The position numbers were made by a program, and so were the translations under genes. Shown here in pieces: positions 1 through 18,199 of a DNA stretch of 64,000 nt; position 1 is the stretch's first letter, and each line of letters starts with the position of its first letter. The stretch comes from an uncultured Pseudomonadota bacterium (GTDB lineage: Bacteria; Vulcanimicrobiota; Vulcanimicrobiia; Eremiobacterales; Eremiobacteraceae): assembly GCA_963736005.1 (NCBI GenBank), contig CAVTNB010000003.1, positions 320,001-384,000 of the forward strand, read 5' to 3'. The notes under the pieces are model-generated. The model ran no database searches and was not told the DNA's origin. It was given only the letters and a program-made list of their open reading frames with translations.

Positions 1-1
1 C

Positions 2-259: not shown

Positions 260-316
260 GCAACAGCCCGCGACAACAATGAGTCTCCTATAGGGACGTT
301 CTTCGGGGGCGCAAGG

Positions 317-357
317 TGGCGTCAGAACTGCTCCGTTTTTCCGCATGCCAACACCCC
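317..357. repeat. Degenerate right terminal inverted repeat of an element related to 11657-14721 (element A')
   Basis: TGGCGTCAGAACTGCTCCGTTTTTCCGCATGCCAACACCCC aligns by eye at 31/43 columns with 14679-14721. It has GGACGTT at a similar distance upstream (294-300) and is followed by (C)CAGA. Confidence 0.6.
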
Positions 358-602
358 CAGATTCACGGTGGGGTAGTTAGACTTGCGCCGGAAATGCCGC
401 ATTATCTGCAATCAAAGCGAGAATTTGTCTGAGCTTAAGCTCGCACTGCTGAAAAACGTGAGTTGCCCCCCCTGTTCCCAAAACACCAGCATTTCCAGCG
501 CAAGTTAAGGCAGAGCGTTCCGACGTCTCCTTGAACATCTCTTGAGACCTCGTTGAGCAAAGCTTTAGGACTTTCATGGCGCTCACCTGGTATAGTTCGC
601 GG

Positions 603-1289
603 ATGAGAAAAGTACTCAGACTCGCACTTGTCAGCGCCAGTCTATGGCTAGCCGCATGCGGCGGCGGAGGTAGTTCACTGCCCGCACCGGGTGAGACCCC
701 ATCTCCTGGCCCCTCGCGTAGCCCGTTGCCTTTCTTGCCTCTCAAGGTCGGCAATACATGGACTTATGCGTGCTACCTGGGCACCCCGGTGCCGGGAGCG
801 TCAACATTCCCCAAGACCAACCAGGTGATCGGCTCAACAACCGTTGGCACCACAGTGACGTACGAGTACCAAGAGCAGCTTCCCACTTCTCCCACAACGG
901 GCAGCACTCAGATACAGCTGCTCGCTAACGATACGAATGGTAACGCCCTTCTATATGGCTATATGGCAAATCCGACTGCATCACCGATGGCAGTGACACC
1001 GACGGTTATCATTCCCCATGTTCCCGGCCCTCCGCTTACATCGTTCTATGATTATCCCGCCCAAGGAGGCGGAACAATCAGCCGCGTGTTCTGCTGCACA
1101 GGCAATACAAACCTCACGGTCTTCGGCGTTCTTCCGGTCAGCGAATATTTCGACGGCTCTCAGGTGTTGTCGTCGACAACCGACGGCTATGGCTATGAAA
1201 TTGGCAAAGGCGCCATGGAAGAAGTGCACAACTCCAATAACGCGAGTCCAAAAGTCGACTGCCTAATCACAGCCACGCCCTCGCCATAG
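603..1289 (+). CDS. Hypothetical lipoprotein
   Basis: MRKVLRLALVSASLWLAA-C lipobox, then GGGGSS and a Pro-rich linker; PLKVGNTWTY motif. Confidence 0.75.
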   Translation: MRKVLRLALVSASLWLAACGGGGSSLPAPGETPSPGPSRSPLPFLPLKVGNTWTYACYLGTPVPGASTFPKTNQVIGSTTVGTTVTYEYQEQLPTSPTTGSTQIQLLANDTNGNALLYGYMANPTASPMAVTPTVIIPHVPGPPLTSFYDYPAQGGGTISRVFCCTGNTNLTVFGVLPVSEYFDGSQVLSSTTDGYGYEIGKGAMEEVHNSNNASPKVDCLITATPSP

Positions 1290-1404
1290 ATGTAGCGTCA
1301 GCACGCGTTTACGACGTCCTGGCCGCTTGTTCGTCAAGACTTCATGGCGCCAAGAAGGGCCAATCTGCGAGCGACACAGCCGATGTCGCGGCCCATGATA
1401 AGTT

Positions 1405-1432
1405 TCGGGCCATCGGTTAACCGATGGCCCGA
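1405..1432. terminator. Perfect 28-bp palindrome, probable terminator between convergent genes
   Basis: TCGGGCCATCGGTT|AACCGATGGCCCGA lies 20 bp past the TonB receptor stop codon. Confidence 0.6.
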
Positions 1433-1452
1433 GGTTTGTGACCCGATCGTTC

Positions 1453-4400
1453 TTACATCTTGAACTGGAGTTGGAAAGTCATTTGGAACGGGTTGAATCC
1501 ACCTGCGTATGGTTGGTTGAGGTAAGGATAATTGTATTGTGGGATTGCCGGCGCAACGTTCCCCACAGGATCGTTTGGCCCCGTACCGTTCCAGAAGTTC
1601 GATACGGCAAGGCCGTTTGCACTATAGAAGCAGGTTTGATTGCCAGGTGGAAACGCTTTGGTCCATGGTGTCGAGGAACCGCCGAAGCATGTGTTGAGGA
1701 TGTTCGCAAAGATTATACGCCCGGTAACCGTGGGGCTGATCTCTGCACTCACTTGAGCCGCAAGATTGAGTAACCACGGCTGTCTGTACTGACCAACTGA
1801 ATCGAATGTGCCAGTTGTTGGATTGGGAATCGCAAGCAAGCCGCCATTAACAAGCGACGCGCCGCAGGTGACGAAGTTTGCCTTACCAGGGTTACCGTCG
1901 GGTACTCCCGCTGCGCCCTGGTTTTGGCCACACGTCCTTGGATCGTAACCAATGATGTCAGTCGGGTCACCGTAATTATCTCCCGACAGCAGCGAGAATA
2001 TCGGACTAATCGAGAATCTCTGATGCTTGAAGGCGAGGTATCCGTGGAATAGATATGGCCACACATTTGAGTTTGCGCCGTTTAGCGCCCCACTCGGAAA
2101 CGTTTGATACGGCAAGTACGATCCATTCCGATCCAGATCTGGTTGCCTCGGATCAAAATAGTAGGGGTTGATAATCGTGCTGCCCGTCGCCGAGGGACTC
2201 AATGTTATGTTAGAACCGGAGACGATGCATTCGGACGGCGCGGCCACGCCGCCATCGTAGCACGGCGCGCCTTTGAGACCTTGAACGTTTCCAGCCGACG
2301 TGAGTGCGTTGAAGCCGTCGATGAAGCCGTTCAAAACGTCGATTCCATTGGTTCCATTGGGTGTGTCGAGCAGCTTCACTGTTGCGTGGGTGTACGTAAA
2401 CGAGAACTGGCCCGATAGACCATCGGCACCTGGGTTGCCACCACTAATCGAGAATTCGACACCCTGCGCTTGTTCGTTACCGTACGGGAAGCCGCTAGCA
2501 AAGTTGGGTCCCAGCGTTACTGTTCCATACTCGTCGTGCGACGACCGGAAGAACGGCGACAAACGAAAGGCCCAAGTCGAATGGGGAATTCGCTGCTCCA
2601 GCGAAAGATCGTAATTATTAGCTGTCACCGGCGGCAAATCGTGCCGAGGCGTGGTGAACCCCAAACCCCAGAAGTTCACAAAATTGAATGCTGCCGCATT
2701 CTTGCCGGCTCCCGGCGCATACAAGTATTCTGTGAACGCCGTCTCAACCGGTTGGGCATAACGGCCGTAATTGAACCGAATGACCGTGTCATCGCTCAAC
2801 GAGTAGGTGCCACCAAAGCGGGGTAGCCATTCACTATGATCGATGGGGCCGCTGATCGAGTTGGTAAACAACAAGTGTCCGTCGAGGCCATCGGGATGAA
2901 CCGTCGGCTTCCCGGTGATCGGGCTGTTCGGGCAGGTCAAATCGATGTACGGCGCAGCCGGTGGCGCCTGCAGTGGGCCAAGCGGCAGGCGCACGGGCTG
3001 TCCTGTCGCTGGGTCGTAGCAATACTCCTGGGCGGCTGCGTGGAACCAGAAATTGTTGTCAGCCGTATCAGAATTTGCCAAGTCATATTTGTAGTTCTCG
3101 AATCGTATCCCACCGTTTAACAAAAGCTTATCACTGACTTTAAATTCGTCCTGGAGACCGCCCGTGGTAAACGTAGGAGCGACCGTGTTATACGTGCCGG
3201 TCGGGCCCAAGAATGAGACGTGCCATGCAGCTCCTGCAGCCCCCGCGGCACCGACGATCGGGACTCCTCCCTGGGTTGGACTCGTGAACGTTCCTGTAGC
3301 CAGCGGATTGCTGCACCAGGTTCGCTCTCCGGCGGTAATTGGTGCCCCAGTATTCGGGTCGGTTCCCGCGACTGCTGCGTAACAATTGCCGCTGGCGTCG
3401 GATAACACGGTAGCCGACGAACCAGGTCCATTGAGCATTTCACTGTTGTTGAACCGTAGCGTGTGTGCCGTGGTGAGATTGGTCGTGAAGTTCAACAGAT
3501 TCCGGTCGCTTATCTGATCTTGGAACTGCAGTTCGCCGCCGTACGTGTGTGAAGACAACTCGTAATCGGGAGCGGCAAGCGTCGGAGCCAGCTGTGCGAG
3601 TCCAATTTCATAAGTGTACACGGTGTCAATTGGAGCGTTTTCCAGCCAATTCGAATACAGCGAATATGCAAAGAACCGAAGGTACGCATTCGAACCCATC
3701 GCGTGCGTATATTGGAACTTGCCGATCTCGTCGCTTACCGATATACCGTCACGCGCGTCGACGCCAATCGTCGAATTGAGCGCCCGGTTGGTTGGGGAGC
3801 TTGGGAACATGTACCGGATGTACGGAAGATTTGACCCATTATTTCCGGCACCGGTCGTCGTCACGGTCTGTCCGAAGCTCGTACCATTCGGCCACGCATA
3901 CCCATCAGCGTAACATGGTGCCGGAGTGGCACAAATGCCTAAGAGCGTAATCAGATTCAGAAACCCGGTTCCTCCTGTGAGGGTCGCGACATTTGCGAGG
4001 CCACCGTCATCATTAATGCTGCTGTAGTATTTTTGCGGTAGAAACGAGCCGCTGTACAGGGTTTGAATGTCGTCACGACTGCCATCGTGCGGGTGCGGAA
4101 TGCCAAAGTGGAGATTTACAACGGCCTCGTGGTCGGAGTAACCCGCGCCGCCATATGTTTCTCCGGTCCCGACATTGTCATTGATGACTTGCGGTAACCC
4201 CTTTATGAAACATCCCGCATTCGTGTTTGGATTCGGTATCGGCCACGTCAAGACTCCGCCAGGTCCAACGCTGCAATATGGAAGCGTTCCTTCGCCATAG
4301 AACGTAAAAAGTGCCGCATTGTACGACGAGGGGTTTAAGAAGGGCGAAGTTACGGATTGCCCACCATTAAACTGATCAAGGTAACGGATGCTTTCTGTGA

Positions 4401-5277
4401 AATTCGAGACGCCGGCATAGTATGTGAACTTACGGTCCGGAGTGGCACCGCCGATGTCGAGTTTTGCGCCATTCCAAAGCGACGGGGAACCAACGGAGAG
4501 ATCTAAGTTCGCAAAACCCGGATAGGTTCCAGTCTTGATCACTTGGTTTATGAAACCGGAGACCGTTGACGTGGACGAACTCGCCGGGGCACCCCCCGTA
4601 TACACTTCTATTTGCTCGTTGCCCAACGTTGACAACGTGTCGCCGTTGTACTGGTCAAATGCACGATTTACGGGCACGCCGTCATATTCATATCCAACCT
4701 CAGTGTAGTTGCCCCCGTGGATGAACACGGTTTGACCCCAGCCAGCGTTGCTCGAGAAGTGATAGATGCCAGGGACGTTATCGAGCGCCGAGTATGCATT
4801 TTCCAGGTTATTACCACCGCCGGACGCTTGGACCGCTTGAATCTGCGTCGCGTTCATCGTGTAGACGTTCGAAGTTTGGCTCCTGCTGACAAGCGATGTC
4901 GACGCGCCCAAGACAGTTACTTTTCCCAGGGTCGCAACGGTTCTGCGAGTTACAAGGTTGACCGTTTGCACCTGGTCGGCAACGACGGTGACGCCCAATT
5001 GAACGACGGAATCGTATCCTTCTTTGCTGGCGGTCACCGTGTACGTGTCGGCTGCGAGAGACAGCATCGCATAGTGTCCATGCGAGTCAGTAAGCGCCGT
5101 AGAGCTTTGTGATGGTGAAGTGGCCGCAACACGGGCACTTGTAATTGGCGTTCCATCGGTGAGAGAAACATTACCATTGATTGCCCCAGTTGTACCCGCC
5201 AGTGTCCTTGTTGCCTGGAAAGTAAACAACACTAGGGCTACCAATATACCTACACGGTATAAGCTCCTTACTAGCAT
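1453..5277 (-). CDS. TonB-dependent receptor-like outer-membrane protein with N-terminal carboxypeptidase-regulatory-like domain
   Basis: Signal peptide; GAINGNV...TDSHGHY...DTYTVTASKEGY domain; plug-like region (IHGG...GYEYDGVPVN, GFINQVIKTG); beta-barrel motifs (LPRFGGTYSL); alternating C-terminal strand. Start placed at ATG 5277 after an AAAGGGG RBS. Confidence 0.85.
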   Translation of the reverse strand: MLVRSLYRVGILVALVLFTFQATRTLAGTTGAINGNVSLTDGTPITSARVAATSPSQSSTALTDSHGHYAMLSLAADTYTVTASKEGYDSVVQLGVTVVADQVQTVNLVTRRTVATLGKVTVLGASTSLVSRSQTSNVYTMNATQIQAVQASGGGNNLENAYSALDNVPGIYHFSSNAGWGQTVFIHGGNYTEVGYEYDGVPVNRAFDQYNGDTLSTLGNEQIEVYTGGAPASSSTSTVSGFINQVIKTGTYPGFANLDLSVGSPSLWNGAKLDIGGATPDRKFTYYAGVSNFTESIRYLDQFNGGQSVTSPFLNPSSYNAALFTFYGEGTLPYCSVGPGGVLTWPIPNPNTNAGCFIKGLPQVINDNVGTGETYGGAGYSDHEAVVNLHFGIPHPHDGSRDDIQTLYSGSFLPQKYYSSINDDGGLANVATLTGGTGFLNLITLLGICATPAPCYADGYAWPNGTSFGQTVTTTGAGNNGSNLPYIRYMFPSSPTNRALNSTIGVDARDGISVSDEIGKFQYTHAMGSNAYLRFFAYSLYSNWLENAPIDTVYTYEIGLAQLAPTLAAPDYELSSHTYGGELQFQDQISDRNLLNFTTNLTTAHTLRFNNSEMLNGPGSSATVLSDASGNCYAAVAGTDPNTGAPITAGERTWCSNPLATGTFTSPTQGGVPIVGAAGAAGAAWHVSFLGPTGTYNTVAPTFTTGGLQDEFKVSDKLLLNGGIRFENYKYDLANSDTADNNFWFHAAAQEYCYDPATGQPVRLPLGPLQAPPAAPYIDLTCPNSPITGKPTVHPDGLDGHLLFTNSISGPIDHSEWLPRFGGTYSLSDDTVIRFNYGRYAQPVETAFTEYLYAPGAGKNAAAFNFVNFWGLGFTTPRHDLPPVTANNYDLSLEQRIPHSTWAFRLSPFFRSSHDEYGTVTLGPNFASGFPYGNEQAQGVEFSISGGNPGADGLSGQFSFTYTHATVKLLDTPNGTNGIDVLNGFIDGFNALTSAGNVQGLKGAPCYDGGVAAPSECIVSGSNITLSPSATGSTIINPYYFDPRQPDLDRNGSYLPYQTFPSGALNGANSNVWPYLFHGYLAFKHQRFSISPIFSLLSGDNYGDPTDIIGYDPRTCGQNQGAAGVPDGNPGKANFVTCGASLVNGGLLAIPNPTTGTFDSVGQYRQPWLLNLAAQVSAEISPTVTGRIIFANILNTCFGGSSTPWTKAFPPGNQTCFYSANGLAVSNFWNGTGPNDPVGNVAPAIPQYNYPYLNQPYAGGFNPFQMTFQLQFKM

Positions 5278-5841
5278 GAGGGACCCCTTTCTGCACTGTG
5301 CATGAGAGAGGGTACACGTCACGTCGCGGGCGCGTGCCCGCAGCGTAGACGCGGACATCGGCCTTCCCCCACGAAAGGTCAATTTCAGCGCGTTAATTAT
5401 GCGGTAAGCTCCCTTTAATCCTTTACTGAAAAAAGTAAAAAGGGCTTGGATTTATGCCAGGGTTTCGACCACAATTTCAGCGTTTATGTAGATGCCGATC
5501 GATGGTGTGAATTTTTCCGCTGGTCTTTCAACCGACGAACGACGCATCTATGATGCGAACGGGTACCCCTGCCACACCGAAGGCCTACACATTCTTGAAC
5601 GGTAACTTGCAATCAGTTTACCAACCATAGGTATCTAACGACCCACTCGCCGTGCCCAACTGTAACGCAGGGGATGTTATCGGCGACTCTATTCCCGGAG
5701 GCAGCAGCATAACAGAGGAACACCAGCGTACTTGGTCTAGCATAAGTGCAGGGCTCTATATATGACACTCTATGTCGAGTATAGCGAGGTAGGATTGACG
5801 TTGTCGGAAAGACGTCACCTCATGGCGACTAATCGAGGTAT

Positions 5842-6333
5842 ATGACGAATAATAGCACCTCCGAGCGTGATGGCCGCAAGGACTTTGATTTTCTCATCGG
5901 GACCTGGCGCACCCATTACAAACGCCTTTCCCAACCGCTTAGCCAAAGTCACGATTGGTACGAATGCGACGGCACCTCGGTCGTTCGCTCCTTATGGGAT
6001 GGTAGCGCAAATATCGAGGAGGGCGACCTTCGATGTCCAAAGGAGTACATTCGCAGCCTGACGCTTCGCGTATACAGCGCCACATCACACCAATGGTCGC
6101 TTTACTGGGGAACAGAAAAACGAGGCTTGGCACCAGGTGCGCAGGTGGGACATTTCGATGATAACGGTTTGGGCGAATTCTTCGCAGACGAGACGTTCGC
6201 AGGCAAGGTAATCGTCGTGCGTTATCAGTGGAAGGTACCGAGTGGCGATCGCCCCCACTTTGAACAAGCATTTTCCGAGGACAAAGGCAAAACGTGGGAA
6301 ACGAATTGGATTTGCGACTACACGCGCACATGA
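5842..6333 (+). CDS. DUF1579-like hypothetical protein
   Basis: DFDFLIGTWR...RL and FEQAFSEDKGKTWETNW motifs; GAGG RBS. Confidence 0.75.
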   Translation: MTNNSTSERDGRKDFDFLIGTWRTHYKRLSQPLSQSHDWYECDGTSVVRSLWDGSANIEEGDLRCPKEYIRSLTLRVYSATSHQWSLYWGTEKRGLAPGAQVGHFDDNGLGEFFADETFAGKVIVVRYQWKVPSGDRPHFEQAFSEDKGKTWETNWICDYTRT

Positions 6334-6548
6334 CTGGAGGCCACAACCGGACGTTTGGGTTGGATCCATTTGATTCAACCCGTGTCTGATCGAATATTTA
6401 ACAATAATGCCTTCCGCTAACGACTTCAAACAGATCTAGGCCATCCATGCATACAGTGCGGGTTGGTGCGTGGGAAAAAGCGGTGAGGCCTTCCTCAGTA
6501 AGGCCGCTGTAGCTGACGAACAATCCCCGGGTCCACTGCGCTCTGCGT

Positions 6549-7067
6549 TCAGTTTTCAGGAGAATTCGTAGGCGCTAGAATAGGGCGTTGTCGGCGGGTC
6601 CTGTCGACGCCCGAGGCGGAAAGGATCGCATTAACGTCGTTTATCAAAGCGAGGGTGAGCACACTATTGGGCGCAGGCGCGCAAGCGAGATCGGGCGATC
6701 TCCAGCCGAGCCATTGGATGTACGCCGTCGTTGCATTCCCGGCGTACGTCCCGCAAAACTCTTTCGCCGCCGCATTCCCGTCGCGCGCCGCTTTGAGATC
6801 AGCGAAGAACCGGTGAGCGAGCGAGGCCGAAATCGTAAAGGTTTTTACGGGGCCATGCGTCGCTCTCCCGCGATCTTGCAGCGTGAGATCGGCGTTGCCG
6901 TCGGCCCACACGTCCATTTTGTATCCCGACCAATCCGTCGAACCCGAATCGACGACCGTCGCACCGTCGCGCGCCGGCGTGTTCGCCGCGCAAACGGCAA
7001 GCGGTAACACCATCAACGATAAAGCAAATGCCACGCGAGCGATTCGCAAGCTAAAAGACTTGTTCAT
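6549..7067 (-). CDS. Hypothetical secreted protein
   Basis: AGGAGGG RBS, signal peptide, Cys pair (FCG...SPDLAC). Confidence 0.75.
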
Positions 7068-7230
7068 TTCCCCTCCTAAAAATAGCCCAGCACTCAGTCA
7101 GCGAAGTCGTTGAAGCGTTCGTCAATGAAGTGCCAGTCTAGCGTGCCGAAGCCGCTTGTTTACCCGATCCGCAGAAGCGACAAATCGTAGTTTTTTATCG
7201 CGGCTTCGACGACACGATTCTGGTTGTCAA

Positions 7231-8274
7231 TTACGGAACGAATCTTCCGATCTTGTTGCTCGAGCCCTCGGTGATCCAGAGATTGCCGTCGTGCCCGACC
7301 GATATACCGGTTGGATTGCTGCCGAAGGCGGCGGCTGGGTACTCAGTGATGGTCCCGGCAAGCGTGCTTTTTCCTATGCTGCCGTCTCCCTCGACGAACC
7401 AGATATTGCCATCAGGCCCGGCGGTGATTCCGAGCGGGTTACTGCCGACGGTGGGGCCTGGGAACTCAGTGATGACCCCGGCCGTCGTGATCTTTGCGAC
7501 CTTGGAGGTCGCGACCTCAGTGAACCAGAGGTTGCCGTCGGGTCCGGCGGCGATGCGCCCAGGCGCTGAACCGGCGGAGGGGATAGAGAACTCGGTGACG
7601 CTGCCCGCGGTCGTGATCCTTCCGATCTTATTGGCTATTGCCTCGATGAACCAGAGATTGCCGTCGGGCCCGGCCGTGATATCCACGAGACCTGGGTTGG
7701 TGGTGGGGAGCGCGAACTCGGTGACGGCGCCAGCGGTCGTCATCCTTCCGATCTTACCGCCGAGGTTTTCGGCGAACCAGAGATTGCCGTCAGGCCCGGC
7801 GGTAATCGCGATTGGAAGGGTTGTGGAAACGGGGAACTCTGTGATGGCGCCGGCGGTCGTGATCCTCCCGATGTCATCGCCGGCGGTGGCAATCTTGACG
7901 AACCAGAGATTACCGTCGGGCCCAGCGGTGATACCGAAAGGGATGTCGCCGCCGGTGGCGGGGATAGGGAACTCAGTGATGGTCCCGCCGGGTGTGATCC
8001 TTCCGATTTTGTTCGCCCCGTGTTCGGTGAACCAGAGATTGCCGTCGGACCCAGCTGCTATACCATAAGGAAAGCTGTTGGCCGTCGGTATCGCATACTC
8101 TGCGACCAAGCACGAGCGGCACGGCGTCGGCGTCGGTGTTGAATGGGGTGGTGGACCCTGAAACGCGCTTGCGCCCCCGCCACCACCGCATCCGGCGACA
8201 GCAAGCGCCCCGAATAAGATTCCGACAAGAGGGATGGAAAGGGCCTCGTGCAGTCCTGCCGATGGTCTCCGCAT
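7231..8274 (-). CDS. Vgb (virginiamycin B lyase)-like beta-propeller lipoprotein
   Basis: About seven repeats of P.GITAGPDGNLWFTE....KIGRITT.G.ITEF; VAG-C lipobox; GAGGAG RBS. Confidence 0.85.
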   Translation of the reverse strand: MRRPSAGLHEALSIPLVGILFGALAVAGCGGGGGASAFQGPPPHSTPTPTPCRSCLVAEYAIPTANSFPYGIAAGSDGNLWFTEHGANKIGRITPGGTITEFPIPATGGDIPFGITAGPDGNLWFVKIATAGDDIGRITTAGAITEFPVSTTLPIAITAGPDGNLWFAENLGGKIGRMTTAGAVTEFALPTTNPGLVDITAGPDGNLWFIEAIANKIGRITTAGSVTEFSIPSAGSAPGRIAAGPDGNLWFTEVATSKVAKITTAGVITEFPGPTVGSNPLGITAGPDGNIWFVEGDGSIGKSTLAGTITEYPAAAFGSNPTGISVGHDGNLWITEGSSNKIGRFVP

Positions 8275-8340
8275 ATCAAATCTCCTCGTCAATGGTGGGG
8301 TTCCTGTGCAAATTTTAGTACACGCGGCTCGTCGGCACAT

Positions 8341-8364
8341 CCGTAAACTTACGTAATATTACGG
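8341..8364. promoter_or_regulatory. Dyad-symmetric candidate operator between divergent genes
   Basis: CCGTAAACTTACGTAATATTACGG is 20/24 self-complementary (two overlapping CGTAA-NN-TTACG boxes); a TATAAT lies at about 8389. Confidence 0.45.
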
Positions 8365-8431
8365 ACGCTCTTGGCCGGTCATTTGCCCTATAATCGTCAC
8401 GGCGGTCAAAGCCTAGAATCGTGAGCACCAT

Positions 8432-8926
8432 GTGATCGACGACCCATTAACCGCTGACGAGCGGGTGCAACAGTTTTGGGATGCGTACGCAGCTTCCGCT
8501 CGAGTAGGCGTTGAAACGTTCACGGTGGTGAGGTTCGGCGATAGCTCTGATCTCGCCGATGAACTGGCCACACAGGTCGTTGCCGGTGAGAAGCGCGCAA
8601 CGACCAATCTTCTGCGAGATTACACCGAGCTCGGCAAGCCCATGCCCAAGCCTGGGTGCTTTGGCGTGGTGATAGACGGCAAGAACTCGCCGCGTTGCAT
8701 CGTTCACATACTACAAGTCGACATCAAGCCTCTTGGCGACGTCGATGAGAGCTTTGCCCGGGATGAAGGGGGCGGCGACCGCAGCCTTGAGTGGTGGCAA
8801 TCCGCCCACGCACGCTATTTCAAAAGGCAGGGTGCCCGCGAGGGGTTCGCGGTTGACGACGGCACCGAGGTTATTCTTGCACGATTTGAGGTTGTGTGGC
8901 CCCTTGAGCTTTCAGACCGACCCTAG
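8432..8926 (+). CDS. ASCH domain protein
   Basis: FGDS..LADELA..V..GEKRATT, FARDEGGGDRSLEWW..AH..YF motifs. Confidence 0.9.
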   Translation: MIDDPLTADERVQQFWDAYAASARVGVETFTVVRFGDSSDLADELATQVVAGEKRATTNLLRDYTELGKPMPKPGCFGVVIDGKNSPRCIVHILQVDIKPLGDVDESFARDEGGGDRSLEWWQSAHARYFKRQGAREGFAVDDGTEVILARFEVVWPLELSDRP

Positions 8927-9097
8927 TCCTGTAATCAGCCACCCCGAAAGGCCCACGAATCTTCACTGTGCGGGCTCGCTTTATAAAATCGCCGCGCAAA
9001 TCGTTAACGGGCGTTGTCGTGGCGATCGTGGAATATGCATGCCCGGCGTCCCAAGGTGGTCGCTTGAGTTTGGGTTTTGGTGTAACACAAACCGGAC

Positions 9098-11539
9098 ATG
9101 GACGTTGCCAAGACGACGACAACCACACTCCTCTCTCCCCTCACAAAGCGGGAGCAAGAAGTGTTGGAGCTTATGGCATTCGGACTTGCCAACAAAGAGA
9201 TCGCCGACAAACTGTCATTGAGCCGGCGCACCGTCGAATCGCACATCGATCGATTGCTTGGGAAACTCAACGCGCCGACCCGAGCACGTGCGGTCGTCGA
9301 GGCCGGACGGGCTGGTCTGCTTGGCGGTCAGACCCTGAAGAACGCCGCCTATTCGGCAAACGACCGTCCTAACAACCTGCCGTTGCAGCTGACGACGCTT
9401 TTGGGTCGCGAGCAAGATCTGGTTGAGGCGAAGTCCTTACTTGAAGCCCATCGCCTCGTCACCATGTCGGGATCGGGTGGCGTCGGCAAGACGCGGCTTG
9501 CGTTGCGGGTAGGCGTCGATCTCCTTGAGCAATATCCCAACGGCGCCTGGTTGTGTGATTTTTCCCCAATCTCAGATCCGGGGCTTGTTTCCAGCGCCGT
9601 AGCAAAAGCGTTGGTTGTTCGCGAGCGACAAGATCGTCTGCTTGTCGAGTCTATCGTCGACAGCTTAAAGCGCAAACAAGCCTTACTGATTTTTGACAAT
9701 TGCGAACACGTCCTGGATGCGACTGCGGAACTCGTCGACGCAATCTTGCATAACTGCCCCAACATCCGAATTCTCGCGACCTCGCGCCAAGCGTTGGGCA
9801 TCGTAGGGGAGCTGGTATATCGGGTTCGCTCACTTGCAGTGCCCGACTCAACCGAAGGTTTGAAAGCCGACGAGGGCTTGCGCTATGGAGCCATTGCTCT
9901 TTTTGTCGACCGAACGCAGGCGTCGGATGCCGGCTTTGCTTTCACCGACGAGTACGCACCCATCATTGCTGAGATCTGTTCTCGCTTGGACGGTATTCCA
10001 CTGGCCATTGAACTGGCAGCGACGAGAAGCAAGGTCATCAACATTCAGAGCTTAGCCCGGAGTCTGGACGATCGCTTCAAGGTGCTGACGACAGGGGGTC
10101 GCACGGCTCTGCCTCGCCATAAGACTTTGGCCGCGCTCATCAGTTGGAGCTACGACCTGCTCGCCGCTCACGAGCAGGCGCTCTTTATGCGCTTAGGCAT
10201 CTTTGCCGGAGGCTTCAGTCTGGCTGCGGCTCGAGTGGTCTGCTGCGGCGATGGTCTCGATGAGATCGACATTCTGGATCTGCTGTCGTCATTGACCGAC
10301 AAGTCGTTGGTCGTCGCTGACACCGGCGGCGAGCACGAACGCTATCGCCTGCTCGAATCCACACGCGCCTATGCGTTGGAGAAGCTCGCGGCTGCAGGTG
10401 ACCGCGAGCGGCTGGCGCGCCGTCACGCCGAGTATTTCCGCGACCAGGCGCAAGAGTCTGACAAACGTTACGATACGGAATTGATTGGACGGCTCGCGAA
10501 CGCGGCTGGGGAACTAGACAACTACCGAGCCGCATTGGAGTGGTCGGTTGCCGACGGGCACGATGCGGTGCTGGGCGGTGTCGTCGCTGGGTCGCTGGAG
10601 CGGCTCTGGCTTGACGGCGGCCTAGCGGCGGAGGGACGTTATTGGATCGAACGTGCGCAAGCGGGCCTTAGCGAATCAGCGCATCCACAGCCGGCGGCCC
10701 GGCTGTGGCGCGCGCTGACCCGCCTGTCCTCAGGCACGCGCAAGCGCGACTACGCGGAGCGAGCCTTCACGCTGTACCAGTCTGTGGGCGACGGCCATGG
10801 GGCGGCCCGGGCGCTCCTCGAGCTTGGGCATGCTCTCTATCAAATGGGCCGCTTCGAGGAATCAAGTGAGGCGGTCGCACGCGCGCTTGCGGCGCTGCAA
10901 AAATACGGGGATAAACGAGGAGTGGCTCGGTGCCTTGGCCGTCAGGCGGACATCTATCGGTCTCGCGGCGATGTCGCTACGGGGCGCGAGCTGTATACCC
11001 AGGCGCTTGAGGCATTCAAGGCCCTTGGAGACGAGGACGGGACAACCATGGTGTTGGCAAATCTCGCGGAGGCCGAATTCAGAGAGGATCATGTTGAGCA
11101 AGCGCTGCGCTTAGCGAGCGAGGCCCTGGAGATTAACGCTCGTGGGAAGAACGCGACGAACTTGGCGCTTGAATCCGTCAACAGCGCTGCGTATTGCATT
11201 GCGCTGGGAAAGCTGGATCGCGCACGTGACGTCGCGCGCGAGGGACTGCGTTGGGCACGACAAGCGCAAGATGCACTAAATATCGCACTCGCATTGCAGC
11301 ATTTTGCGCTGCTCGGGGCGTTGCACCGAGAAGTGGATATTGCGGCGCGGCTCATCGGTTACGTCAATGTGCAGCTCAAAGAGCTCGGGTCGGAGCGTGA
11401 GTACACCGAAAAGTGGGGCTACGAGAAGCTGATGACCGGACTACACGAGCGACTGAGTGAGGCCGAGATAGAAAAGCTCGCGGCCGAAGGCGCGGTGTGG
11501 TCGGAAGATCAGGCGATCGAAGAAGCACTTAAGGTCTAG
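9098..11539 (+). CDS. LuxR-HTH / STAND-type ATPase / TPR transcriptional regulator
   Basis: N-terminal LTKREQEVL...GLANKEIA..L.LS.RTVESH; Walker A GSGGVGKT; Walker B LLIFDNCEH; LDGIPLAIELAA; C-terminal TPR-like repeats. Confidence 0.9.
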   Translation: MDVAKTTTTTLLSPLTKREQEVLELMAFGLANKEIADKLSLSRRTVESHIDRLLGKLNAPTRARAVVEAGRAGLLGGQTLKNAAYSANDRPNNLPLQLTTLLGREQDLVEAKSLLEAHRLVTMSGSGGVGKTRLALRVGVDLLEQYPNGAWLCDFSPISDPGLVSSAVAKALVVRERQDRLLVESIVDSLKRKQALLIFDNCEHVLDATAELVDAILHNCPNIRILATSRQALGIVGELVYRVRSLAVPDSTEGLKADEGLRYGAIALFVDRTQASDAGFAFTDEYAPIIAEICSRLDGIPLAIELAATRSKVINIQSLARSLDDRFKVLTTGGRTALPRHKTLAALISWSYDLLAAHEQALFMRLGIFAGGFSLAAARVVCCGDGLDEIDILDLLSSLTDKSLVVADTGGEHERYRLLESTRAYALEKLAAAGDRERLARRHAEYFRDQAQESDKRYDTELIGRLANAAGELDNYRAALEWSVADGHDAVLGGVVAGSLERLWLDGGLAAEGRYWIERAQAGLSESAHPQPAARLWRALTRLSSGTRKRDYAERAFTLYQSVGDGHGAARALLELGHALYQMGRFEESSEAVARALAALQKYGDKRGVARCLGRQADIYRSRGDVATGRELYTQALEAFKALGDEDGTTMVLANLAEAEFREDHVEQALRLASEALEINARGKNATNLALESVNSAAYCIALGKLDRARDVAREGLRWARQAQDALNIALALQHFALLGALHREVDIAARLIGYVNVQLKELGSEREYTEKWGYEKLMTGLHERLSEAEIEKLAAEGAVWSEDQAIEEALKV

Positions 11540-11716
11540 ACTCGCAAGCAGATATCAGCAAGACTAGTTCTTTATGTCGAGGGCAGCACGAATAGTAGGG
11601 TGTTCCCAAAACCGCCGCATTTTGAACGCAAGTTTATCTACCCAGACGTTTTGACCGGGGTATAGTGGAACGCGGGAAAATGGACAACTCTTGACGCCAG
11701 TAACCTCGTTCATTCA

Positions 11717-11898
11717 AACGTCCGGTGCCTGCGAACCAACGTCCGATGCCCCTGCAATTGCGATCAATTGGTTGCACGTAGCGAACCGGTGAAACGTCCG
11801 ACGCACACGCTTTTTCCCGATAGAGCGCTCCTTTTATGGCACTTCACCCTTGCTACGGCATTGCGTCTGCAAACGCAATCAAACGGCCAAACGTCCGG
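11717..11898 (-). repeat. Left subterminal AACGTCCG(G/A) motif cluster (4 copies)
   Basis: Copies at 11717, 11738, 11793 and 11890; reverse complement of the right-end motif. Confidence 0.8.
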
Positions 11899-11941
11899 CT
11901 CGATGCCCAGTACAGAGCGTAACTAATACCTGAAAGGCGAA

Positions 11942-12136
11942 CTAACTCCGCGCCTTGGCGCACTCAGGGCACGTGTTGTAAACACCAGGTCCTTGCTGCC
12001 CCCGCATCATCTTCCACTGCGCAGCAGTTCCTGGAGTAATCTTCGTTGTGCAGCGACCGGCAACGTGGGACTCGGATGGGCACCCACCACATCGGCATGC
12101 GACGTCTCCCTTTTGATCGATTCCGAATTTAATCAT
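11942..12136 (-). CDS. Small Cys-rich (possible zinc-binding) protein, 64 aa
   Basis: AGAGGA RBS; CRCGGC...H...C...CPEC pattern. Confidence 0.55.
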   Translation of the reverse strand: MIKFGIDQKGDVACRCGGCPSESHVAGRCTTKITPGTAAQWKMMRGQQGPGVYNTCPECAKARS

Positions 12137-12429
12137 ATCTCATTCCTCTTTTAAACGCTCCGTAAAAACAAAAGGCGAAACGACCTCTTTGCGGCCATTT
12201 CGCCTCGGCTTCCACACCGTTACAAGCGTGGGCTACGGAGTGCTGTGTTGGTTCGCGGGATCTCTGATTGCACCTTGCTTTTTCTTGTACCATCGGGTGA
12301 GTATTGGATGTTGCTTTAGCCGATGTGATCACCCACGGCTGGCGTCAGAACTAGACGGTTGTAATTCGCAAGCGCGACAAACGTCATCTTTTTTGAGCCG
12401 AAAAAGATGACTCTAAGCGGTGATCAACC

Positions 12430-13038
12430 CTAGCTGGGCAGGAGCACCAAGTCTGCCGCTTCCTCAGCATCTTTGAGGAGCGTCTTGCGCGGCGTGCCTA
12501 TCCGCGCACGCACGGTCAGGCCACGAGCAAAATCCGTAACTTGGATCGCGCGCACGGCTACCGGAAAGTCAGGCGGAATGTCCCCCGCACAGATCCCGTC
12601 GCGGAAACGGCGCTCCACCAGCGCCACGGCGCCCGCGACCGTACTCTGCAGGAACCGCCGAACCTCAGCGTCGTTCAACAGCGGCGCGACGCACACCAGA
12701 AGGCAGCCCCGGGCGGACCCTTTCTCGGTCGCGCTTGCGACGGCGTACCTCAGAAAGCTTGCGAGCGAGTCGCGCAGAGCCTGCGGCGCGAGGAGTGCCT
12801 TCGCGGCGAGAGCGCCCTTCCTCTCGGCGTACGCGTGGAGGACACGCAAGAATATCTTCCGCTTGGACCCAAAAACTGAATACAGACTCGGCCGCCCGAC
12901 TCCCATCCCGGCGACGAGATCGTCGATCGTCACTCCGTCGTAGCCTTTCAACCAGAACACCTGGGTCGCTTTTTCCAGCGCGTCCCTCTCGTCGAAGCTG
13001 CGCGGTCGTCCACGTGGCCTGGCGGTATTTTGAAACAT
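12430..13038 (-). CDS. TetR/AcrR family transcriptional regulator
   Basis: RGRPRSFD...A..VFW.KGYDGVTIDDL...MGVGRPSLYSVFGSK; RGCLLV; AGGAG RBS; divergent from the SDR gene. Confidence 0.92.
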   Translation of the reverse strand: MFQNTARPRGRPRSFDERDALEKATQVFWLKGYDGVTIDDLVAGMGVGRPSLYSVFGSKRKIFLRVLHAYAERKGALAAKALLAPQALRDSLASFLRYAVASATEKGSARGCLLVCVAPLLNDAEVRRFLQSTVAGAVALVERRFRDGICAGDIPPDFPVAVRAIQVTDFARGLTVRARIGTPRKTLLKDAEEAADLVLLPS

Positions 13039-13168
13039 TTGGTTCGAAACTCCTTGTTCTTGGTCATCCAATCCATTATAGTACGGAAAGGTTCGAAATT
13101 GGCAAGTCGACCCCTGGCCTCGCGGGGGCCTCACGACCCGACCTTTCCCCTTCACCACGGAGACGCCC

Positions 13169-14143
13169 ATGGAACATTCAATCGCTCTCGTCACCGGCAC
13201 CACCTCCGGACTTGGACATGCGGCAGCCCGCATGCTAGCCGCGGAGGGCTACCGCGAGGTCATCGTCACCGGGCGCAGCCTGGCCCGGGTACAGGAAACG
13301 GCAGCTGGGCTCGCAGCTGAGACCAAGACGCAGGTTTTTACACCGCTAGAGCTGGATCTGGACTCGCCGTCTAGCGTTCAATCCGCACTCGCCGAGCTCG
13401 TCAAGCGAGGTCGGCCGGTCGATTTCCTACTGCTAAATGCAGGGATGGTCGGAGGTAAGAAGCGCGTGGTCACTGCGGCGGGCGTCGAGGCTTCTCAGGC
13501 CCCGCTAATCGGCCATCATCAACTGACTGTTGGGTTGCTCCGCGCCAACCTGCTGAGCCCCGACGCGCGGATTGTTATCGCCGGCGCGGAACCTGCCCGA
13601 GGGGACGTGCCCCTGTTCAGCTTCACCGACGTGGCGGCCTTCGCGGCCAAACGCCACCAGGGTGACCGAACCGCCGCTATTGAAGCCCTGCTGCGCAACG
13701 GGCCGAACGTGAAGTACGTGCCCAACCGGGCGTATGCCGATGCGAAGCTCATCATCGCTTGGTGGGTCGCGGCGCTGGCGCGCCGGCTACCCTCCGGCAT
13801 GGCCGTATACGCCGTCTCGCCCGGTAGCGCGCCCAACACCAAGGCGGTGCGTAACGCTGGCCCGGCCTTGAAGTGGCTGATGATTCCGCTGGTGAAGCTC
13901 ATCCCCGGCATGTCTCAGACGCCGGAGACCGCGGCTCGTCGCTACCTCCAGGCATCGGAGTTCGGAACCGACGTGTCGGGGCAATTCTTCGCCTCGGCGC
14001 CCAAGAAGCTCATCGGCCCAATTGAGGCAATGCGCCACCCACACTTGCACGATCGCGCCAACCAGGAAGCCGCGTGGCAGGCCGTCGTCAAGGTCTCTGG
14101 CGTCGACTTTTCTTATCCCGCATCCTTGAGCGCGTTGTCCTGA
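13169..14143 (+). CDS. Short-chain dehydrogenase/reductase (SDR)
   Basis: ALVTGTTSGLG, LLLNAG and YADAK (YxxxK) motifs. Confidence 0.92.
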   Translation: MEHSIALVTGTTSGLGHAAARMLAAEGYREVIVTGRSLARVQETAAGLAAETKTQVFTPLELDLDSPSSVQSALAELVKRGRPVDFLLLNAGMVGGKKRVVTAAGVEASQAPLIGHHQLTVGLLRANLLSPDARIVIAGAEPARGDVPLFSFTDVAAFAAKRHQGDRTAAIEALLRNGPNVKYVPNRAYADAKLIIAWWVAALARRLPSGMAVYAVSPGSAPNTKAVRNAGPALKWLMIPLVKLIPGMSQTPETAARRYLQASEFGTDVSGQFFASAPKKLIGPIEAMRHPHLHDRANQEAAWQAVVKVSGVDFSYPASLSALS

Positions 14144-14190
14144 AGGAGCGCCGGTTGGCGGACGGATACTGGTGGCAACGGGTTGGACCA

Positions 14191-14661
14191 CCGGACGTTG
14201 GCCGCGGTGACGAATCAAAGCCGAATGACCGGACGTTTGTCGGCGGATCCAAAACCGGAAGTTGGGGCTGCTTGTGTAGTATCCCAAGCGAAAAGACACT
14301 ATTGCCATTAGGCACTGAAACCCGGACGTTGCCCCGTTTTATGGCGTTTTGTAGATTGCATTGCACATTGCAACCCTTGAATCGCGGCAAAGCCCCGGGA
14401 TTCACCGGGGGAAGGCGTATGCCCCGGACGTTATTCAGACGCTTGATAACCATTCGTATGATCGCGATTGCAAGTACCGGACGTTTGATTGATCGTCTCC
14501 TGAATAATCTCGACAATTCGTAACTCAATCGCCTAGCTTGAAATTGAATTCAAAATCGACCGCAAGCCCGCAAATATACAATTGTGGGCAATGCGATCAT
14601 CGTAAGCAATTAAGTAATCAAATCGGGAGGCCCGGACGTTAGCAGCTGGGCACCGGACGTT
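14191..14661 (+). repeat. Right subterminal CCGGACGTT motif cluster (7 exact copies plus 1 variant)
   Basis: Copies at 14191, 14229, 14322, 14424, 14477, 14632 and 14653; variant CCGGAAGTT at 14255. Confidence 0.85.
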
Positions 14662-14759
14662 TGGCAGATCAGCCCGACTGGCGTCAGAAGTTGTCCAATT
14701 TCCCGCGCTCCACTATACCCCCCAGACGTTCGACCGCGGAGGAGAAATCGTTGGCGGTT

Positions 14760-14775
14760 TATAATTAGCCACTAA
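14760..14775 (+). promoter_or_regulatory. -10 box and candidate MarR operator
   Basis: TATAAT at 14760-14765 overlaps the TTAG-CCA-CTAA dyad just upstream of marR. Confidence 0.45.
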
Positions 14776-14797
14776 ACCATTAGGAGCTGAACTACTC

Positions 14798-15349: not shown

Positions 15350-15352
15350 GTC

Positions 15353-16564: not shown

Positions 16565-16575
16565 AGATTAGACTA

Positions 16576-16601
16576 GGCGGACCTCAAGGTCCGCCGCTAC
16601 A
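16576..16601. repeat. REP family 1 (GCGGACCTNAAGGTCCGC..CTACA)
   Basis: Palindrome with a CTAC/GTAG foot; further copies at 23760, 26761, 27395, ~32915 and 45071. Confidence 0.8.
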
Positions 16602-16610
16602 GACGCGATT

Positions 16611-18179: not shown

Positions 18180-18199
18180 ACCCTACTTCAGGAAAAACC

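What the first reader, a model, noticed from the sequence alone, without database searches (positions are those of the whole stretch)
294..14735. Head-to-tail array of transposase-free GGGG-TIR cargo elements separated by copies of one target sequence (casposon-like architecture)
Seen: the order is [right end A' ...AACACCCC 357] - CAGATTCACGGT - [GGGGTAG 370 ... CTACCC 11643] - AGACGTTTTGACC - [GGGGTAT 11657 ... ATACCCC 14721] - CCAGACGTTCGACC. Each junction between element ends is only 12-13 bp. All three junction/flank sequences begin (CC)AGA, and they are more decayed the further left they lie. Two related TIR types are present (GGGGTA...GCG...AAATG). Established (from memory): casposons have G-run-initiated TIRs, make ~14-15-bp target duplications and can insert repeatedly into one site to form tandem arrays, whereas Tn3 and Tn7 make 5-bp duplications. 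Inference: this is a polarised stack of non-autonomous cargo elements, functionally like a gene-sized CRISPR array or integron, mobilised in trans by a Cas1-like or unknown integrase.
Basis: partly seen in the sequence, partly recalled or inferred. Interest (0 to 1): 0.9.

Follow-up and report, generated by a model that had tools for sequence, protein, structure and literature searches.

The report
Stack of Cas1-less casposon-derived cargo elements
Upstream of a marR efflux operon lies a stack of gene-carrying mobile elements that have casposon-type ends and target duplications but no enzyme genes of their own, which suggests that a Cas1 integrase supplied from elsewhere can pile ordinary genes into one chromosomal site.

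Summary
Profiles built only from other genomes pick these ends as the best hits in the 2.84-Mb genome.

The casposon-like reading is largely supported:
- The two end types, "B" (GGGGTAG...) and "C" (GGGGTATAG...), are conserved in a family-restricted set of genomes. Nearly all copies sit just upstream of the marR promoter.
- In relatives, elements bounded by these ends carry perfect 14-15-bp target duplications (G002, G047, G021).
- A metagenome contig (L070) has a B-type end at the marR site followed by a PolB and a Cas1 gene.
- G007's marR-site element keeps a PolB 82% identical to L070's. G009's keeps a PolB remnant.
- A Cas1+PolB casposon elsewhere in G007 has GGGG-initiated TIRs with the same AAACGTCCGG subterminal repeats as window element C.
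- Another casposon of the phylum (L207) has a perfect 14-bp duplication.

The window's own elements and genome encode neither Cas1 nor PolB.

Weak points:
- Junction 1 resembles the other two junctions no better than chance.
- Element "B" is probably a mosaic.
- L070's Cas1 and PolB look degraded.
- Mobilisation in trans is inferred, not shown.

Verdict: a new variant of a known kind, namely non-autonomous cargo casposon derivatives stacked at one site.

The parts
312..357 (-). Right end of a distal element A' (C-type-like end, terminal ...CACCCC). No left end was found.
   Evidence: R2 40.2 bits. Leave-out profile E 0.0011, third best hit in the genome.
358..369 (.). Junction 1, a 12-nt spacer (CAGATTCACGGT) between the A' end and the B left end.
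   Evidence: Its similarity to the other junctions is no better than chance.
370..412 (+). B-type end, left-facing (GGGGTAGTTAGACTTGCGCCGGAAATGCCGC...). Weak copy lacking the TTTTGGGAACAC block.
   Evidence: R1 33.2 bits. Leave-out profile E 0.011, joint second best in the genome.
473..505 (-). Internal partial B-type motif (model positions 12-44) without the terminal GGGGTAG. Probably a remnant of a further end.
   Evidence: (D10). Similar partial motifs lie between genes in G022, G009, G007 and L064.
576..11539 (.). Cargo of segment B: lipoprotein-like ORF 576-1289(+), CarboxypepD_reg/TonB-dependent receptor 1453-5382(-), two unknown ORFs 5842-6333(+) and 6549-7067(-), Vgb-lyase-family beta-propeller 7231-8340(-), ASCH 8432-8926(+), LuxR-STAND-TPR regulator 9098-11539(+).
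   Evidence: Pfam. The gene order differs in G002, where LuxR is followed directly by the lipoprotein gene. Window 9008-11644 is 92% identical to G047, against 69% for the marR flank.
11597..11643 (-). B-type end, right-facing (...GTTTATCTACCC).
   Evidence: R1 48 bits. Leave-out profile E 2e-12, best hit in the genome.
11644..11656 (.). Junction 2, a 13-nt spacer AGACGTTTTGACC. Distal copy of the target duplication of element C.
   Evidence: Edit distance 4 to the right flank; 471 of 200000 random pairs do as well.
11657..11703 (+). C-type end, left TIR of element C.
   Evidence: 45-nt TIR, 91% complementary. R2 51.4 bits. Leave-out profile E 6.5e-11.
11717..11897 (+). Four subterminal AACGTCCG repeats at the left end of C.
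   Evidence: The same AAACGTCCGGTG pair lies in the TIRs of the G007 Cas1+PolB casposon.
12430..14143 (.). Cargo of element C: TetR-family regulator 12430-13233(-) and short-chain dehydrogenase 13169-14143(+).
   Evidence: Pfam. The SDR gene (13139-14155) is 92% identical to G047.
14192..14661 (-). Seven subterminal AACGTCCG repeats, inverted, at the right end of C.
14675..14721 (-). C-type end, right TIR of element C.
   Evidence: E 5.8e-11.
14722..14735 (.). Promoter-proximal copy of the 14-nt target (CCAGACGTTCGACC).
   Evidence: At the same position G002 and G047 have perfect 14-nt duplications of other sequences.
14736..15349 (+). Conserved marR promoter region (GCGGAGGAGAAAT...GGTTTATAATTAGCCACTAAACCATTAGGAGC), a possible leader-like determinant, followed by marR 14798-15349. 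HlyD 15353-16564 and an MFS pump 16611-18179 lie downstream.
   Evidence: Element ends lie 14-16 nt upstream of this block or of a TTGAC box in at least 13 genomes or contigs.

Best explanation
Window 312-14735 is an array of end-bounded segments derived from casposons. These are Cas1-dependent, self-synthesizing transposons, but here the Cas1 and PolB genes have been lost and ordinary cargo genes are carried instead.

The array sits at a lineage-specific casposon target immediately upstream of the marR-hlyD-MFS promoter.

Proposed mechanism:
- A casposase (solo Cas1) from an autonomous casposon, supplied in trans, binds the GGGG-initiated ends. These come in two types, B and C, and the C type has AACGTCCGG subterminal repeats.
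- The casposase joins the two 3' ends to target strands 14 nt apart.
- Gap repair then duplicates the 14-mer.
- The site determinant is the conserved promoter block and/or a resident element end. It stays next to the proximal copy, so later insertions land there and push older units away from marR.
- Older junctions and ends decay, and adjacent units fuse or recombine into mosaics such as segment B.

Shown:
- The ends, their conservation and their restriction to one family.
- The fixed site.
- 14-15-bp duplications in relatives.
- Cas1+PolB or PolB remnants inside elements with the same ends.
- Between-genus transfer of cargo.

Inferred:
- Mobilisation in trans.
- Which casposase serves which end type.
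- The leader-like determinant.
- The polarity of insertion.
For: 1. Ends.
- Two conserved end families (alignments A1 and A2). B-type ends matched in 13 of 32 genomes of the family and C-type ends in 10 of 32 at E <= 0.1. B-type ends matched in 0 of 119 genomes of the other two families of the class.
- The window's ends are the top genome-wide hits of profiles built without them.

2. Target duplications flanking elements with these ends.
- G002: B..C element, 1268 bp, GCTACAGCACCGAC, 14/14.
- G047: C..B element, 8.3 kb, ATTGGCTGACGCCG, 14/14.
- G021: C..C element with at least 139 bp of identical TIR; the flanks on two contigs are the same 15-mer.
- G009: C..B element, 9.1 kb, 13 nt against 14 nt with one indel.
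- L069: C..C element, 1171 bp, 13/13, inserted exactly into the spacer between two resident ends.

3. Same site.
- The terminal CCCC lies 14-16 nt from the conserved promoter block or TTGAC box of marR in G000, G002, G004, G047, G006, G021, G007, G014, G016, G022 and L070.
- No end was detected upstream of marR in G003 and G012.

4. Link to Cas1 and PolB.
- L070: a B-type end at the marR site, followed by an AbiE pair, PolB and Cas1.
- G007 marR-site element: PolB-like ORF 82% identical to L070's. G009 element: PolB C-terminal remnant, 61% identical.
- The G007 and G020 Cas1 align with L070's with the E, H and D/E columns invariant. Their best solved relative is chain 6opm_A (E 4e-18).
- G007 casposon (16.4 kb): 83-nt TIRs starting GGGG and holding tandem AAACGTCCGGTG motifs, a 12-14-nt duplication, and a further element following in tandem.
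- L207 casposon: 1242-bp TIRs and a 14/14 duplication.
- A PolB homolog lies beside Cas1 in 13 of 18 genome-contig loci.

5. Mobility.
- LuxR plus the B end, and the SDR gene, are 92% identical between G000 and G047, whose marR flank is 69% identical.
- G000 and G002 share flanks at about 87% identity but hold different elements at the site.

6. [quoted passage not shown]
Against: - No Cas1 or PolB in the window or in its genome. The genome is 84% complete, so absence is not proven.
- Cas1 matched in only 2 of 32 genomes of the family. None of the genomes with perfect duplications (G002, G047, G021) showed one.
- The only Cas1 seen inside an element with a B-type end (L070) is 289 aa, against about 440 aa in its relatives. 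It lacks the N-terminal part. Its PolB is split into two ORFs. Only one end of that element could be seen, because 10.2 of 16.9 kb were held.
- No Cas1-bearing element with a C-type terminus was found. None of the 18 Cas1 loci from genome contigs matched the B or C models.
- Segment B has no duplication, a weak left end, and a gene order that is a circular permutation of that in G002. It is probably not one transposition unit.
- Elements with one B and one C end would need one enzyme to accept both end types, or two enzymes. This was not tested.
Confidence: 0.78

Rival explanations
1. The units are site-specific recombination cassettes. A tyrosine or serine recombinase encoded elsewhere recombines a circular cassette, whose joined ends flank a 12-14-nt core, with the same core in the chromosome. 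The repeated 14-mer would then be a shared crossover core and not a repair-made duplication. This resembles integron cassettes, pdif modules or tycheposon satellites.
For: - The junctions have the look of a recombination site: two inverted binding elements around a 12-14-nt spacer.
- Spacers within one array resemble each other (G009 and L069).
- L069 shows insertion exactly into a spacer between two resident ends.
- Units bounded by B/B and by C/C ends alternate in the window.
Against: - No recombinase domain turned up in the ORFs scanned with Pfam in and beside the arrays. The one exception is an ordinary IS3-type rve gene in G007.
- The 14-mers differ between genomes although cargo has moved between genera. 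This fits repair-made duplication better than a core that must be homologous.
- All four end combinations occur (B..C, C..B, B..B, C..C), so there is no strict alternation.
- Elements with the same ends carry Cas1 and PolB.
Confidence: 0.1
2. The units are Tn3-family derivatives: non-autonomous elements with GGGG-initiated inverted repeats, moved by a Tn3-type DDE transposase.
For: - The ends start with GGGG and contain a CGG(G)AAAA block, which resembles Tn3-family repeats. That resemblance is recalled, not tested.
- A Tn3-family transposase exists in 2 of 32 family genomes. One of them, G011, is flagged unpublished.
Against: - The duplications are 13-15 nt, not 5.
- PF01526 gave no match in 30 of 32 family genomes, the window's included.
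- The G012 Tn3-like element has different repeats, starting GGCCCTAAGG, and matches neither model.
- Stacking directly against resident ends is the opposite of Tn3 target immunity (established knowledge).
Confidence: 0.03
3. The region is a vertically inherited, now immobile accessory island. The 'ends' are relics or regulatory repeats of the marR region, and nothing in the window has moved recently.
For: - The ends occur only at this locus in the genome.
- The window's own duplication is imperfect and junction 1 is decayed.
- No enzyme gene is present in the genome.
Against: - This concerns only present activity, not origin.
- Relatives show perfect duplications and at least 139 bp of identical TIRs.
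- Cargo is 92% identical across genera whose flanks are 69% identical.
- The close relative G002 holds a different element at the same point.
Confidence: 0.09

Closest known systems
Casposons (Cas1-solo plus PolB self-synthesizing transposons; tandem arrays and solo-TIRs in Methanosarcina mazei, PMC4779613, passages read)
   Same: - Terminal inverted repeats.
- Target duplications of 14-15 bp.
- Strong site preference, and insertion into intergenic regions in bacteria.
- Repeated use of one site, giving adjacent elements separated only by the duplication.
- Decayed copies and lone ends.
- Elements with the same B-type ends carry Cas1 and PolB (L070) or PolB alone (G007).
   Different: - The window's units encode neither Cas1 nor PolB and carry unrelated cargo: regulators, a TonB-dependent receptor, a Vgb-lyase-like protein and an SDR.
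- Two end types are mixed freely.
- At least three units are stacked.
- The target is the upstream edge of a promoter, not a tRNA or EF-2 gene.
- The host is a bacterial lineage whose related records are titled Eremiobacteraeota.
- The polymerase gives only a weak match to the protein-primed PolB family PF03175. The passages read assign RNA-primed PolB to bacterial family 3 casposons.
CRISPR arrays (Cas1-Cas2 spacer acquisition at the leader-proximal repeat)
   Same: - Works alike: Cas1-family integration.
- Duplication of the target segment at each insertion.
- A fixed flanking determinant.
- Apparent polarity, with the best-preserved duplication nearest the promoter.
   Different: - The inserts are gene-sized elements with their own ends, not short spacers.
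- The duplicated unit is 14 nt and varies between genomes.
- No Cas2, no crRNA and no interference genes.
Integron cassette arrays and pdif (XerC/D) modules
   Same: - Works alike as a platform that gathers promoterless or self-contained gene units, without their own enzyme, at one site.
- The units are bounded by short recognition sequences.
   Different: - No IntI or attC-type hairpin sites were identified.
- The ends are 45-50-nt inverted repeats outside which lies a 14-nt duplication.
- End types do not alternate strictly.
Tn7-like elements at attTn7
   Same: - Asymmetric ends with several subterminal binding repeats.
- One conserved chromosomal site next to a gene.
- Accumulation of several elements at that site, some defective.
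   Different: - Termini are GGGG, not TGT.
- Duplication is 14 nt, not 5.
- No TnsA-E homologs were seen.

Membership tests
Casposon | Encodes a solo Cas1 (casposase) | tested here: not met
   Window and whole genome: no PF01867 match and no tblastn hit with the L070 or G007 Cas1. Met only in relatives: L070, with the same B-type end, and G007 and G020.
Casposon | Encodes a family B DNA polymerase | tested here: not met
   No tblastn hit in the window or the genome. Elements with the same ends do have one: L070, the G007 marR-site element at 82% identity, and a remnant in G009.
Casposon | Terminal inverted repeats | tested here: met
   Element C: 45 nt, 91% complementary. The B ends match profiles built from other genomes.
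Casposon | Target site duplication of about 14-15 bp | tested here: inconclusive
   In the window, only element C has one, and it is imperfect (AGACGTTTTGACC against CCAGACGTTCGACC; 471 of 200000 random pairs do as well). Segment B has none. In relatives with the same ends the duplications are 14/14, 14/14 and 15/15.
Casposon | Ends homologous to those of a Cas1-bearing element | tested here: met
   B type: the L070 end scores 45.9 bits with R1. C type: only the subterminal AAACGTCCGGTG repeats and the GGGG terminus are shared with the G007 casposon TIR. No Cas1-bearing element with a full C-type end was found.
Casposon | Integration catalysed by the casposase | not testable with these tools
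   This needs an in vitro or in vivo integration assay.
Tn3 family (including non-autonomous derivatives) | 5-bp target duplication | tested here: not met
   The flanks of B and C share no 5-mer. Relatives show duplications of 13-15 nt.
Tn3 family (including non-autonomous derivatives) | A cognate Tn3-type transposase with matching repeats in the lineage | tested here: not met
   PF01526 matched in 2 of 32 family genomes. The G012 copy has unrelated repeats.
Integron | IntI integrase beside attI, and cassettes ending in attC hairpin sites | not tested
   No integrase domain turned up in the ORFs scanned around the arrays. No search for IntI in the whole genome and no attC model were run.

The most novel reading that the evidence does not exclude
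The marR-promoter site is a casposase-driven gene-capture platform. A leader-like determinant directs every insertion to the proximal 14-mer, so that Cas1-less units carrying arbitrary genes accumulate in order of arrival, and units are exchanged between genera. This would be a natural intermediate between a casposon and a CRISPR array: Cas1 acting in trans on a chromosomal array whose 'repeats' are the duplicated target and whose 'spacers' are whole gene cassettes.
Probability: 0.3. Interest if true: 0.85.

Novelty: new variant of a known kind. Interest (0 to 1): 0.72.

Why it matters
Casposons are the proposed ancestors of the CRISPR adaptation module. In the passages I read they are described as rare and mostly archaeal, and as carrying their own Cas1.

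This locus points to two further things:
- A bacterial lineage in which casposon ends have been taken over by non-autonomous, cargo-carrying units.
- Repeated use of one target, which has built ordered arrays beside a conserved flank.

If mobilisation in trans is confirmed, three consequences follow:
- Cas1 integrases could then be said to move arbitrary genes.
- There would be a living model for the step from a casposon to an array served by Cas1 in trans.
- A short, defined set of ends and a target would be available for testing casposase specificity.

Tried and rejected
- Further copies of the ends in the window's genome. blastn-short and a Hamming scan found none above noise. A fuzzy-regex scan timed out.
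- Left end of A'. Not found in the 20 kb to the left (L190) or anywhere else in the genome.
- Tn3 hypothesis. Rejected.
- A recombinase or transposase inside the large elements of G044, G047, G009, G022 and G007. None was found with Pfam, NCBIfam or PHROGs, apart from an unrelated IS3-type gene in G007.
- Interior of the G021 element and continuation of the G004 contig. No overlapping contig was found.
- The rest of contig L070, to find its second end. The record is not held for searching, so its far end, duplication and length remain unknown.
- Cas1 loci of genome contigs (18 loci). None matched the B or C end models.
- A close relative of the L070-type Cas1 in 401 genomes of the phylum. The query was P0006, a 446-aa relative 58% identical to it. 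There were many matches, but all were 41% identical or less.
- The metagenome pattern scan returned 120 stretches, of which 80 were fetched. Only 3 of the 80 (L064, L069, L070) were real ends by the models; the rest were chance matches.
- PDB sequence search with the G020 PolB. No match at E <= 1.
- A strict pdif-like alternation of end types. Rejected, because all four combinations occur.

Full report
**1. The observation**

The sequence at the stated coordinates reads exactly as described:
- a right end ...AACACCCC at 357
- 12 nt (CAGATTCACGGT)
- GGGGTAG at 370 ... CTACCC at 11643
- 13 nt (AGACGTTTTGACC)
- GGGGTAT at 11657 ... ATACCCC at 14721
- CCAGACGTTCGACC, then the marR promoter

Element C has a 45-nt inverted repeat that is 91% complementary. 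It is the longest in window 1-20000.

- The motif AACGTCCG occurs 4 times on the + strand just inside the left end of C (11717-11890) and 7 times on the - strand inside its right end (14192-14654). These are the only clusters of the motif in the 2.84-Mb genome.
- A partial copy of the B-type end lies inverted at 473-505.

None of the 18 ORFs scanned in window 1-23751 is a transposase or integrase. Their content:
- Segment B: a lipoprotein-like ORF, a TonB-dependent receptor, two unknown ORFs, a Vgb-lyase-family propeller, an ASCH protein and a LuxR-STAND regulator.
- Element C: a TetR regulator and an SDR.
- Downstream flank: marR, HlyD and an MFS pump.

**2. Are the ends more than chance?**

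Within the genome the ends have no other copies. An ungapped comparison of the two B ends alone sits at noise level, so the evidence has to come from relatives.

BLAST and two sequence models (R1 for the B type, R2 for the C type) show two conserved end families in the window's taxonomic family. B-type ends matched in 13 of 32 genomes and C-type ends in 10 of 32, at E <= 0.1. B-type ends matched in 0 of 119 genomes of the other two families of the class.

Profiles built only from other genomes' ends were run over the whole genome:

| Profile | Window hit | E-value |
|---|---|---|
| B type (11 ends) | 11597-11643 | 2e-12 |
| B type | 370-403 | 0.011 |
| B type | 473-505 | 0.011 |
| B type | next best hit | 0.36 |
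| C type (10 ends) | 14675-14721 | 5.8e-11 |
| C type | 11657-11702 | 6.5e-11 |
| C type | 312-349 | 0.0011 |
| C type | next best hit | 1.6 |

So all five ends are real. The left end of B is a weak copy.

The junctions are a different matter:
- Junction 2 against the right flank has edit distance 4, reached by 471 of 200000 random pairs from the genome.
- Junction 1 against junction 2 is reached by 180314 of 200000, and against the right flank by 52546 of 200000.
- 'One target sequence, three copies' is therefore shown for two copies only.

**3. The same site in relatives, with clean duplications**

- G002 is the closest relative (flanks about 87% identical). It has a different element, 1268 bp long, at the very same point. 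It runs from a B-type end to a C-type end, carries a MarR-like gene and a cupin gene, and is flanked by a perfect 14-nt direct repeat, GCTACAGCACCGAC.
- G047 has an 8.3-kb C..B element next to marR, flanked by ATTGGCTGACGCCG twice (14/14). The distal copy abuts the terminus of a further B-type end.
- In G021 two contigs end in the same 139 nt of C-type end, and their flanks are the same 15-mer in opposite orientation. This is a C..C element with long identical repeats and a 14-15-nt duplication.
- G009 has a stack: C end, spacer, a 1.2-kb B..B unit, spacer, a 9.1-kb C..B unit, then flank. The last two spacers differ by one indel.
- Metagenome contig L069 shows a 1171-bp C..C unit inserted exactly into the 13-nt spacer between a resident B end and a resident degenerate C end, duplicating that spacer.
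- The terminal CCCC lies 14-16 nt from the conserved promoter block (GCGGAGGAGAAAT...GGTTTATAATTAG) or from a TTGAC box of marR in G000, G002, G004, G047, G006, G021, G007, G014, G016, G022 and L070.
- G003 and G012 have the promoter but no detectable end.
- Several MAG contigs break inside or beside the elements.

All four end combinations occur. B and C are therefore interchangeable end variants, not fixed left and right ends.

**4. The enzyme**

No recombinase turned up in or next to any array.

A Tn3-type transposase matched in 2 of 32 family genomes. The G012 copy has unrelated repeats.

The decisive lead came from the metagenome scan. Contig L070 has a B-type end (45.9 bits) abutting a marR-like gene at the usual distance. 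Inside it lie:
- an AbiE toxin-antitoxin pair
- an 866-aa ORF plus a 323-aa ORF, homologous to the C- and N-terminal parts of a polymerase-like protein of about 1000 aa (E 3e-53 and 2.9e-12)
- a Cas1 (PF01867, E 1.9e-36)

The polymerase-like protein was recognised in G007 and G020, where it lies beside a solo Cas1 of 447 or 464 aa. Findings at these loci:
- No tandem repeat array was found near the G007 locus. The G020 locus was not checked for one.
- The polymerase-like protein gives a weak match to PF03175 (E 0.007 and 1.5e-4).
- It carries YGGR and CDTDS motifs, which I read from recall as PolB motifs.

The G007 locus is a 16.4-kb element with these features:
- 83-nt inverted repeats that start with GGGG
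- two tandem AAACGTCCGGTG motifs about 50 nt from each terminus, the arrangement seen in window element C
- GCGCACAACGCT on both sides
- a further GGGG-initiated end following directly in tandem

A scan of species genomes with the Cas1 alignment found 18 loci. Sixteen are titled as Eremiobacteraeota, Cybelea, Zemynaea, Baltobacteraceae or Vulcanimicrobiota MAGs. Thirteen of the 18 have the polymerase beside Cas1. One of them, L207, has 1242-bp inverted repeats and a perfect 14-nt duplication, TCCGCGAACCCCAT.

Further links:
- G007's own marR-site element, which ends in a B-type end, holds a polymerase ORF 82% identical to L070's. G009's C..B element holds a C-terminal polymerase remnant at 61% identity.
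- The three Cas1 proteins align with the E, H and D/E columns invariant. Their best solved relative is 6opm_A, which I recall, without a call, to be the Methanosarcina casposase.

**5. Reading**

The window's units are casposon derivatives that lost Cas1 and PolB, kept the ends, and carry cargo. They sit at the lineage's casposon target, the upstream edge of the marR promoter.

Mobility:
- Window 9008-11644 (LuxR plus the B end) and 13139-14155 (SDR) are 92% identical to G047, a different genus whose marR flank is 69% identical.
- This indicates recent transfer of element-borne DNA between genera.

Polarity:
- The units with perfect or best-kept duplications are the promoter-proximal ones in G002, G047, G021, G009 and G000.
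- For L069 the position relative to marR is unknown.

**6. What does not fit, or is not shown**

- The window's genome (84% complete) has no Cas1 or PolB. Cas1 matched in only 2 of 32 family genomes.
- Solo Cas1 homologs are common in the sister family: 67 of 297 genomes, against 2 of 29 in this family.
- L070's Cas1 is short: 289 aa against about 440 aa in relatives that are 51-59% identical, with the N-terminal part missing. Its polymerase is split into two ORFs. Only one end of the element was visible.
- No Cas1-bearing element with a full C-type terminus was found.
- Segment B has no duplication. In G002 the LuxR gene is followed after 35 nt by the lipoprotein gene, which in G000 lies at the other end of B. 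B is therefore probably a fusion or rearrangement of at least two units.
- Partial B motifs without the terminal GGGGTAG lie between consecutive genes in G022, G009, G007 and L064. I read them as scars of such fusions, but this is not shown.

**7. Comparison with what is known**

From passages of PMC4779613:
- Casposons insert site-specifically.
- They make 14-nt duplications in M. mazei.
- They can sit in tandem, separated only by the shared duplication.
- They leave solo-TIRs.
- Bacterial (family 3) casposons lie in intergenic regions.
- Families 2 and 3 have RNA-primed PolB, and family 1 has protein-primed PolB.

Two full-text searches listed no paper describing non-autonomous, cargo-carrying casposon derivatives or casposons in Eremiobacterota. 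I read only listings and the passages named above. I opened no supplements. Subscription papers are not covered by the library.

**8. Verdict**

- The window's units fail two defining features of a casposon (own Cas1, own PolB), so I do not file them as casposons. I file them as non-autonomous derivatives that work like casposons.
- This is a new variant of a known kind.

Noticed in passing
G-handle genomes of the phylum; loci L213-L232: Solo Cas1 homologs are frequent in the sister family f2: 67 of 297 genomes, 46 of 80 in genus g13, and up to 4 matches per genome. In the window's family they are rare (2 of 29). In the passages I read, bacterial casposons are described as few, so this phylum may be a large unexplored reservoir.
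   Followed up: partly
L064 (metagenome contig, 1313 nt): 73-99, 656-685, 1258-1286: Three partial B-type motifs (model positions 19-48, no GGGGTAG terminus) are spaced about 600 nt apart. The second and third each lie directly after a stop codon and before the next small ORF. This looks like single-gene units joined by a 30-nt motif.
   Followed up: partly
window 14736-14797, and L049:14930-15040: The operator-like word TATAATTAGGnnnTAAACCATTAGGAGC is conserved upstream of marR across genera. A similar word lies upstream of a STAS and outer-membrane-efflux gene pair in G009, where that genome's array sits. It may be the site determinant.
   Followed up: no
L011:15735-15771 (G002) against window 370-575 and 11540-11643: In G002 the LuxR gene is followed after 35 nt by the lipoprotein gene, with no element ends between them. 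In the window these two genes lie at opposite ends of segment B. The order is a circular permutation that I could not resolve.
   Followed up: partly
L191+L192, concatenated coordinates 29368 onward (G007:C3): Directly after the G007 casposon's right duplication a second GGGGTTAATAAGG... end begins, with four AACGTCC repeats. This is a second element in tandem at a site that is not marR.
   Followed up: no
L188 (G012:C93, 3859 nt): The whole contig is a minimal Tn3-family element: a 984-aa ORF covering the PF01526 transposase match, and a 338-aa ORF on the other strand, between inverted repeats that start GGCCCTAAGGTAGCGAAGGCCGA. It is unrelated to the finding.
   Followed up: partly
window 7265-8087: The 123-129-nt direct repeats (families D1-D6) are the blades of the Vgb-lyase/NHL-type beta-propeller gene 7231-8340(-). 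They are not a separate repeat element.
   Followed up: yes
L048:4251-5251, L070:1013-3203, L011:18300-18530: Toxin-antitoxin pairs ride in or beside the elements: GNAT/TacA in G047 and AbiEii/AbiEi in L070. A small ORF in G002, which looks like an antitoxin but was not scanned, lies just outside the element. Such pairs could stabilise the array.
   Followed up: no
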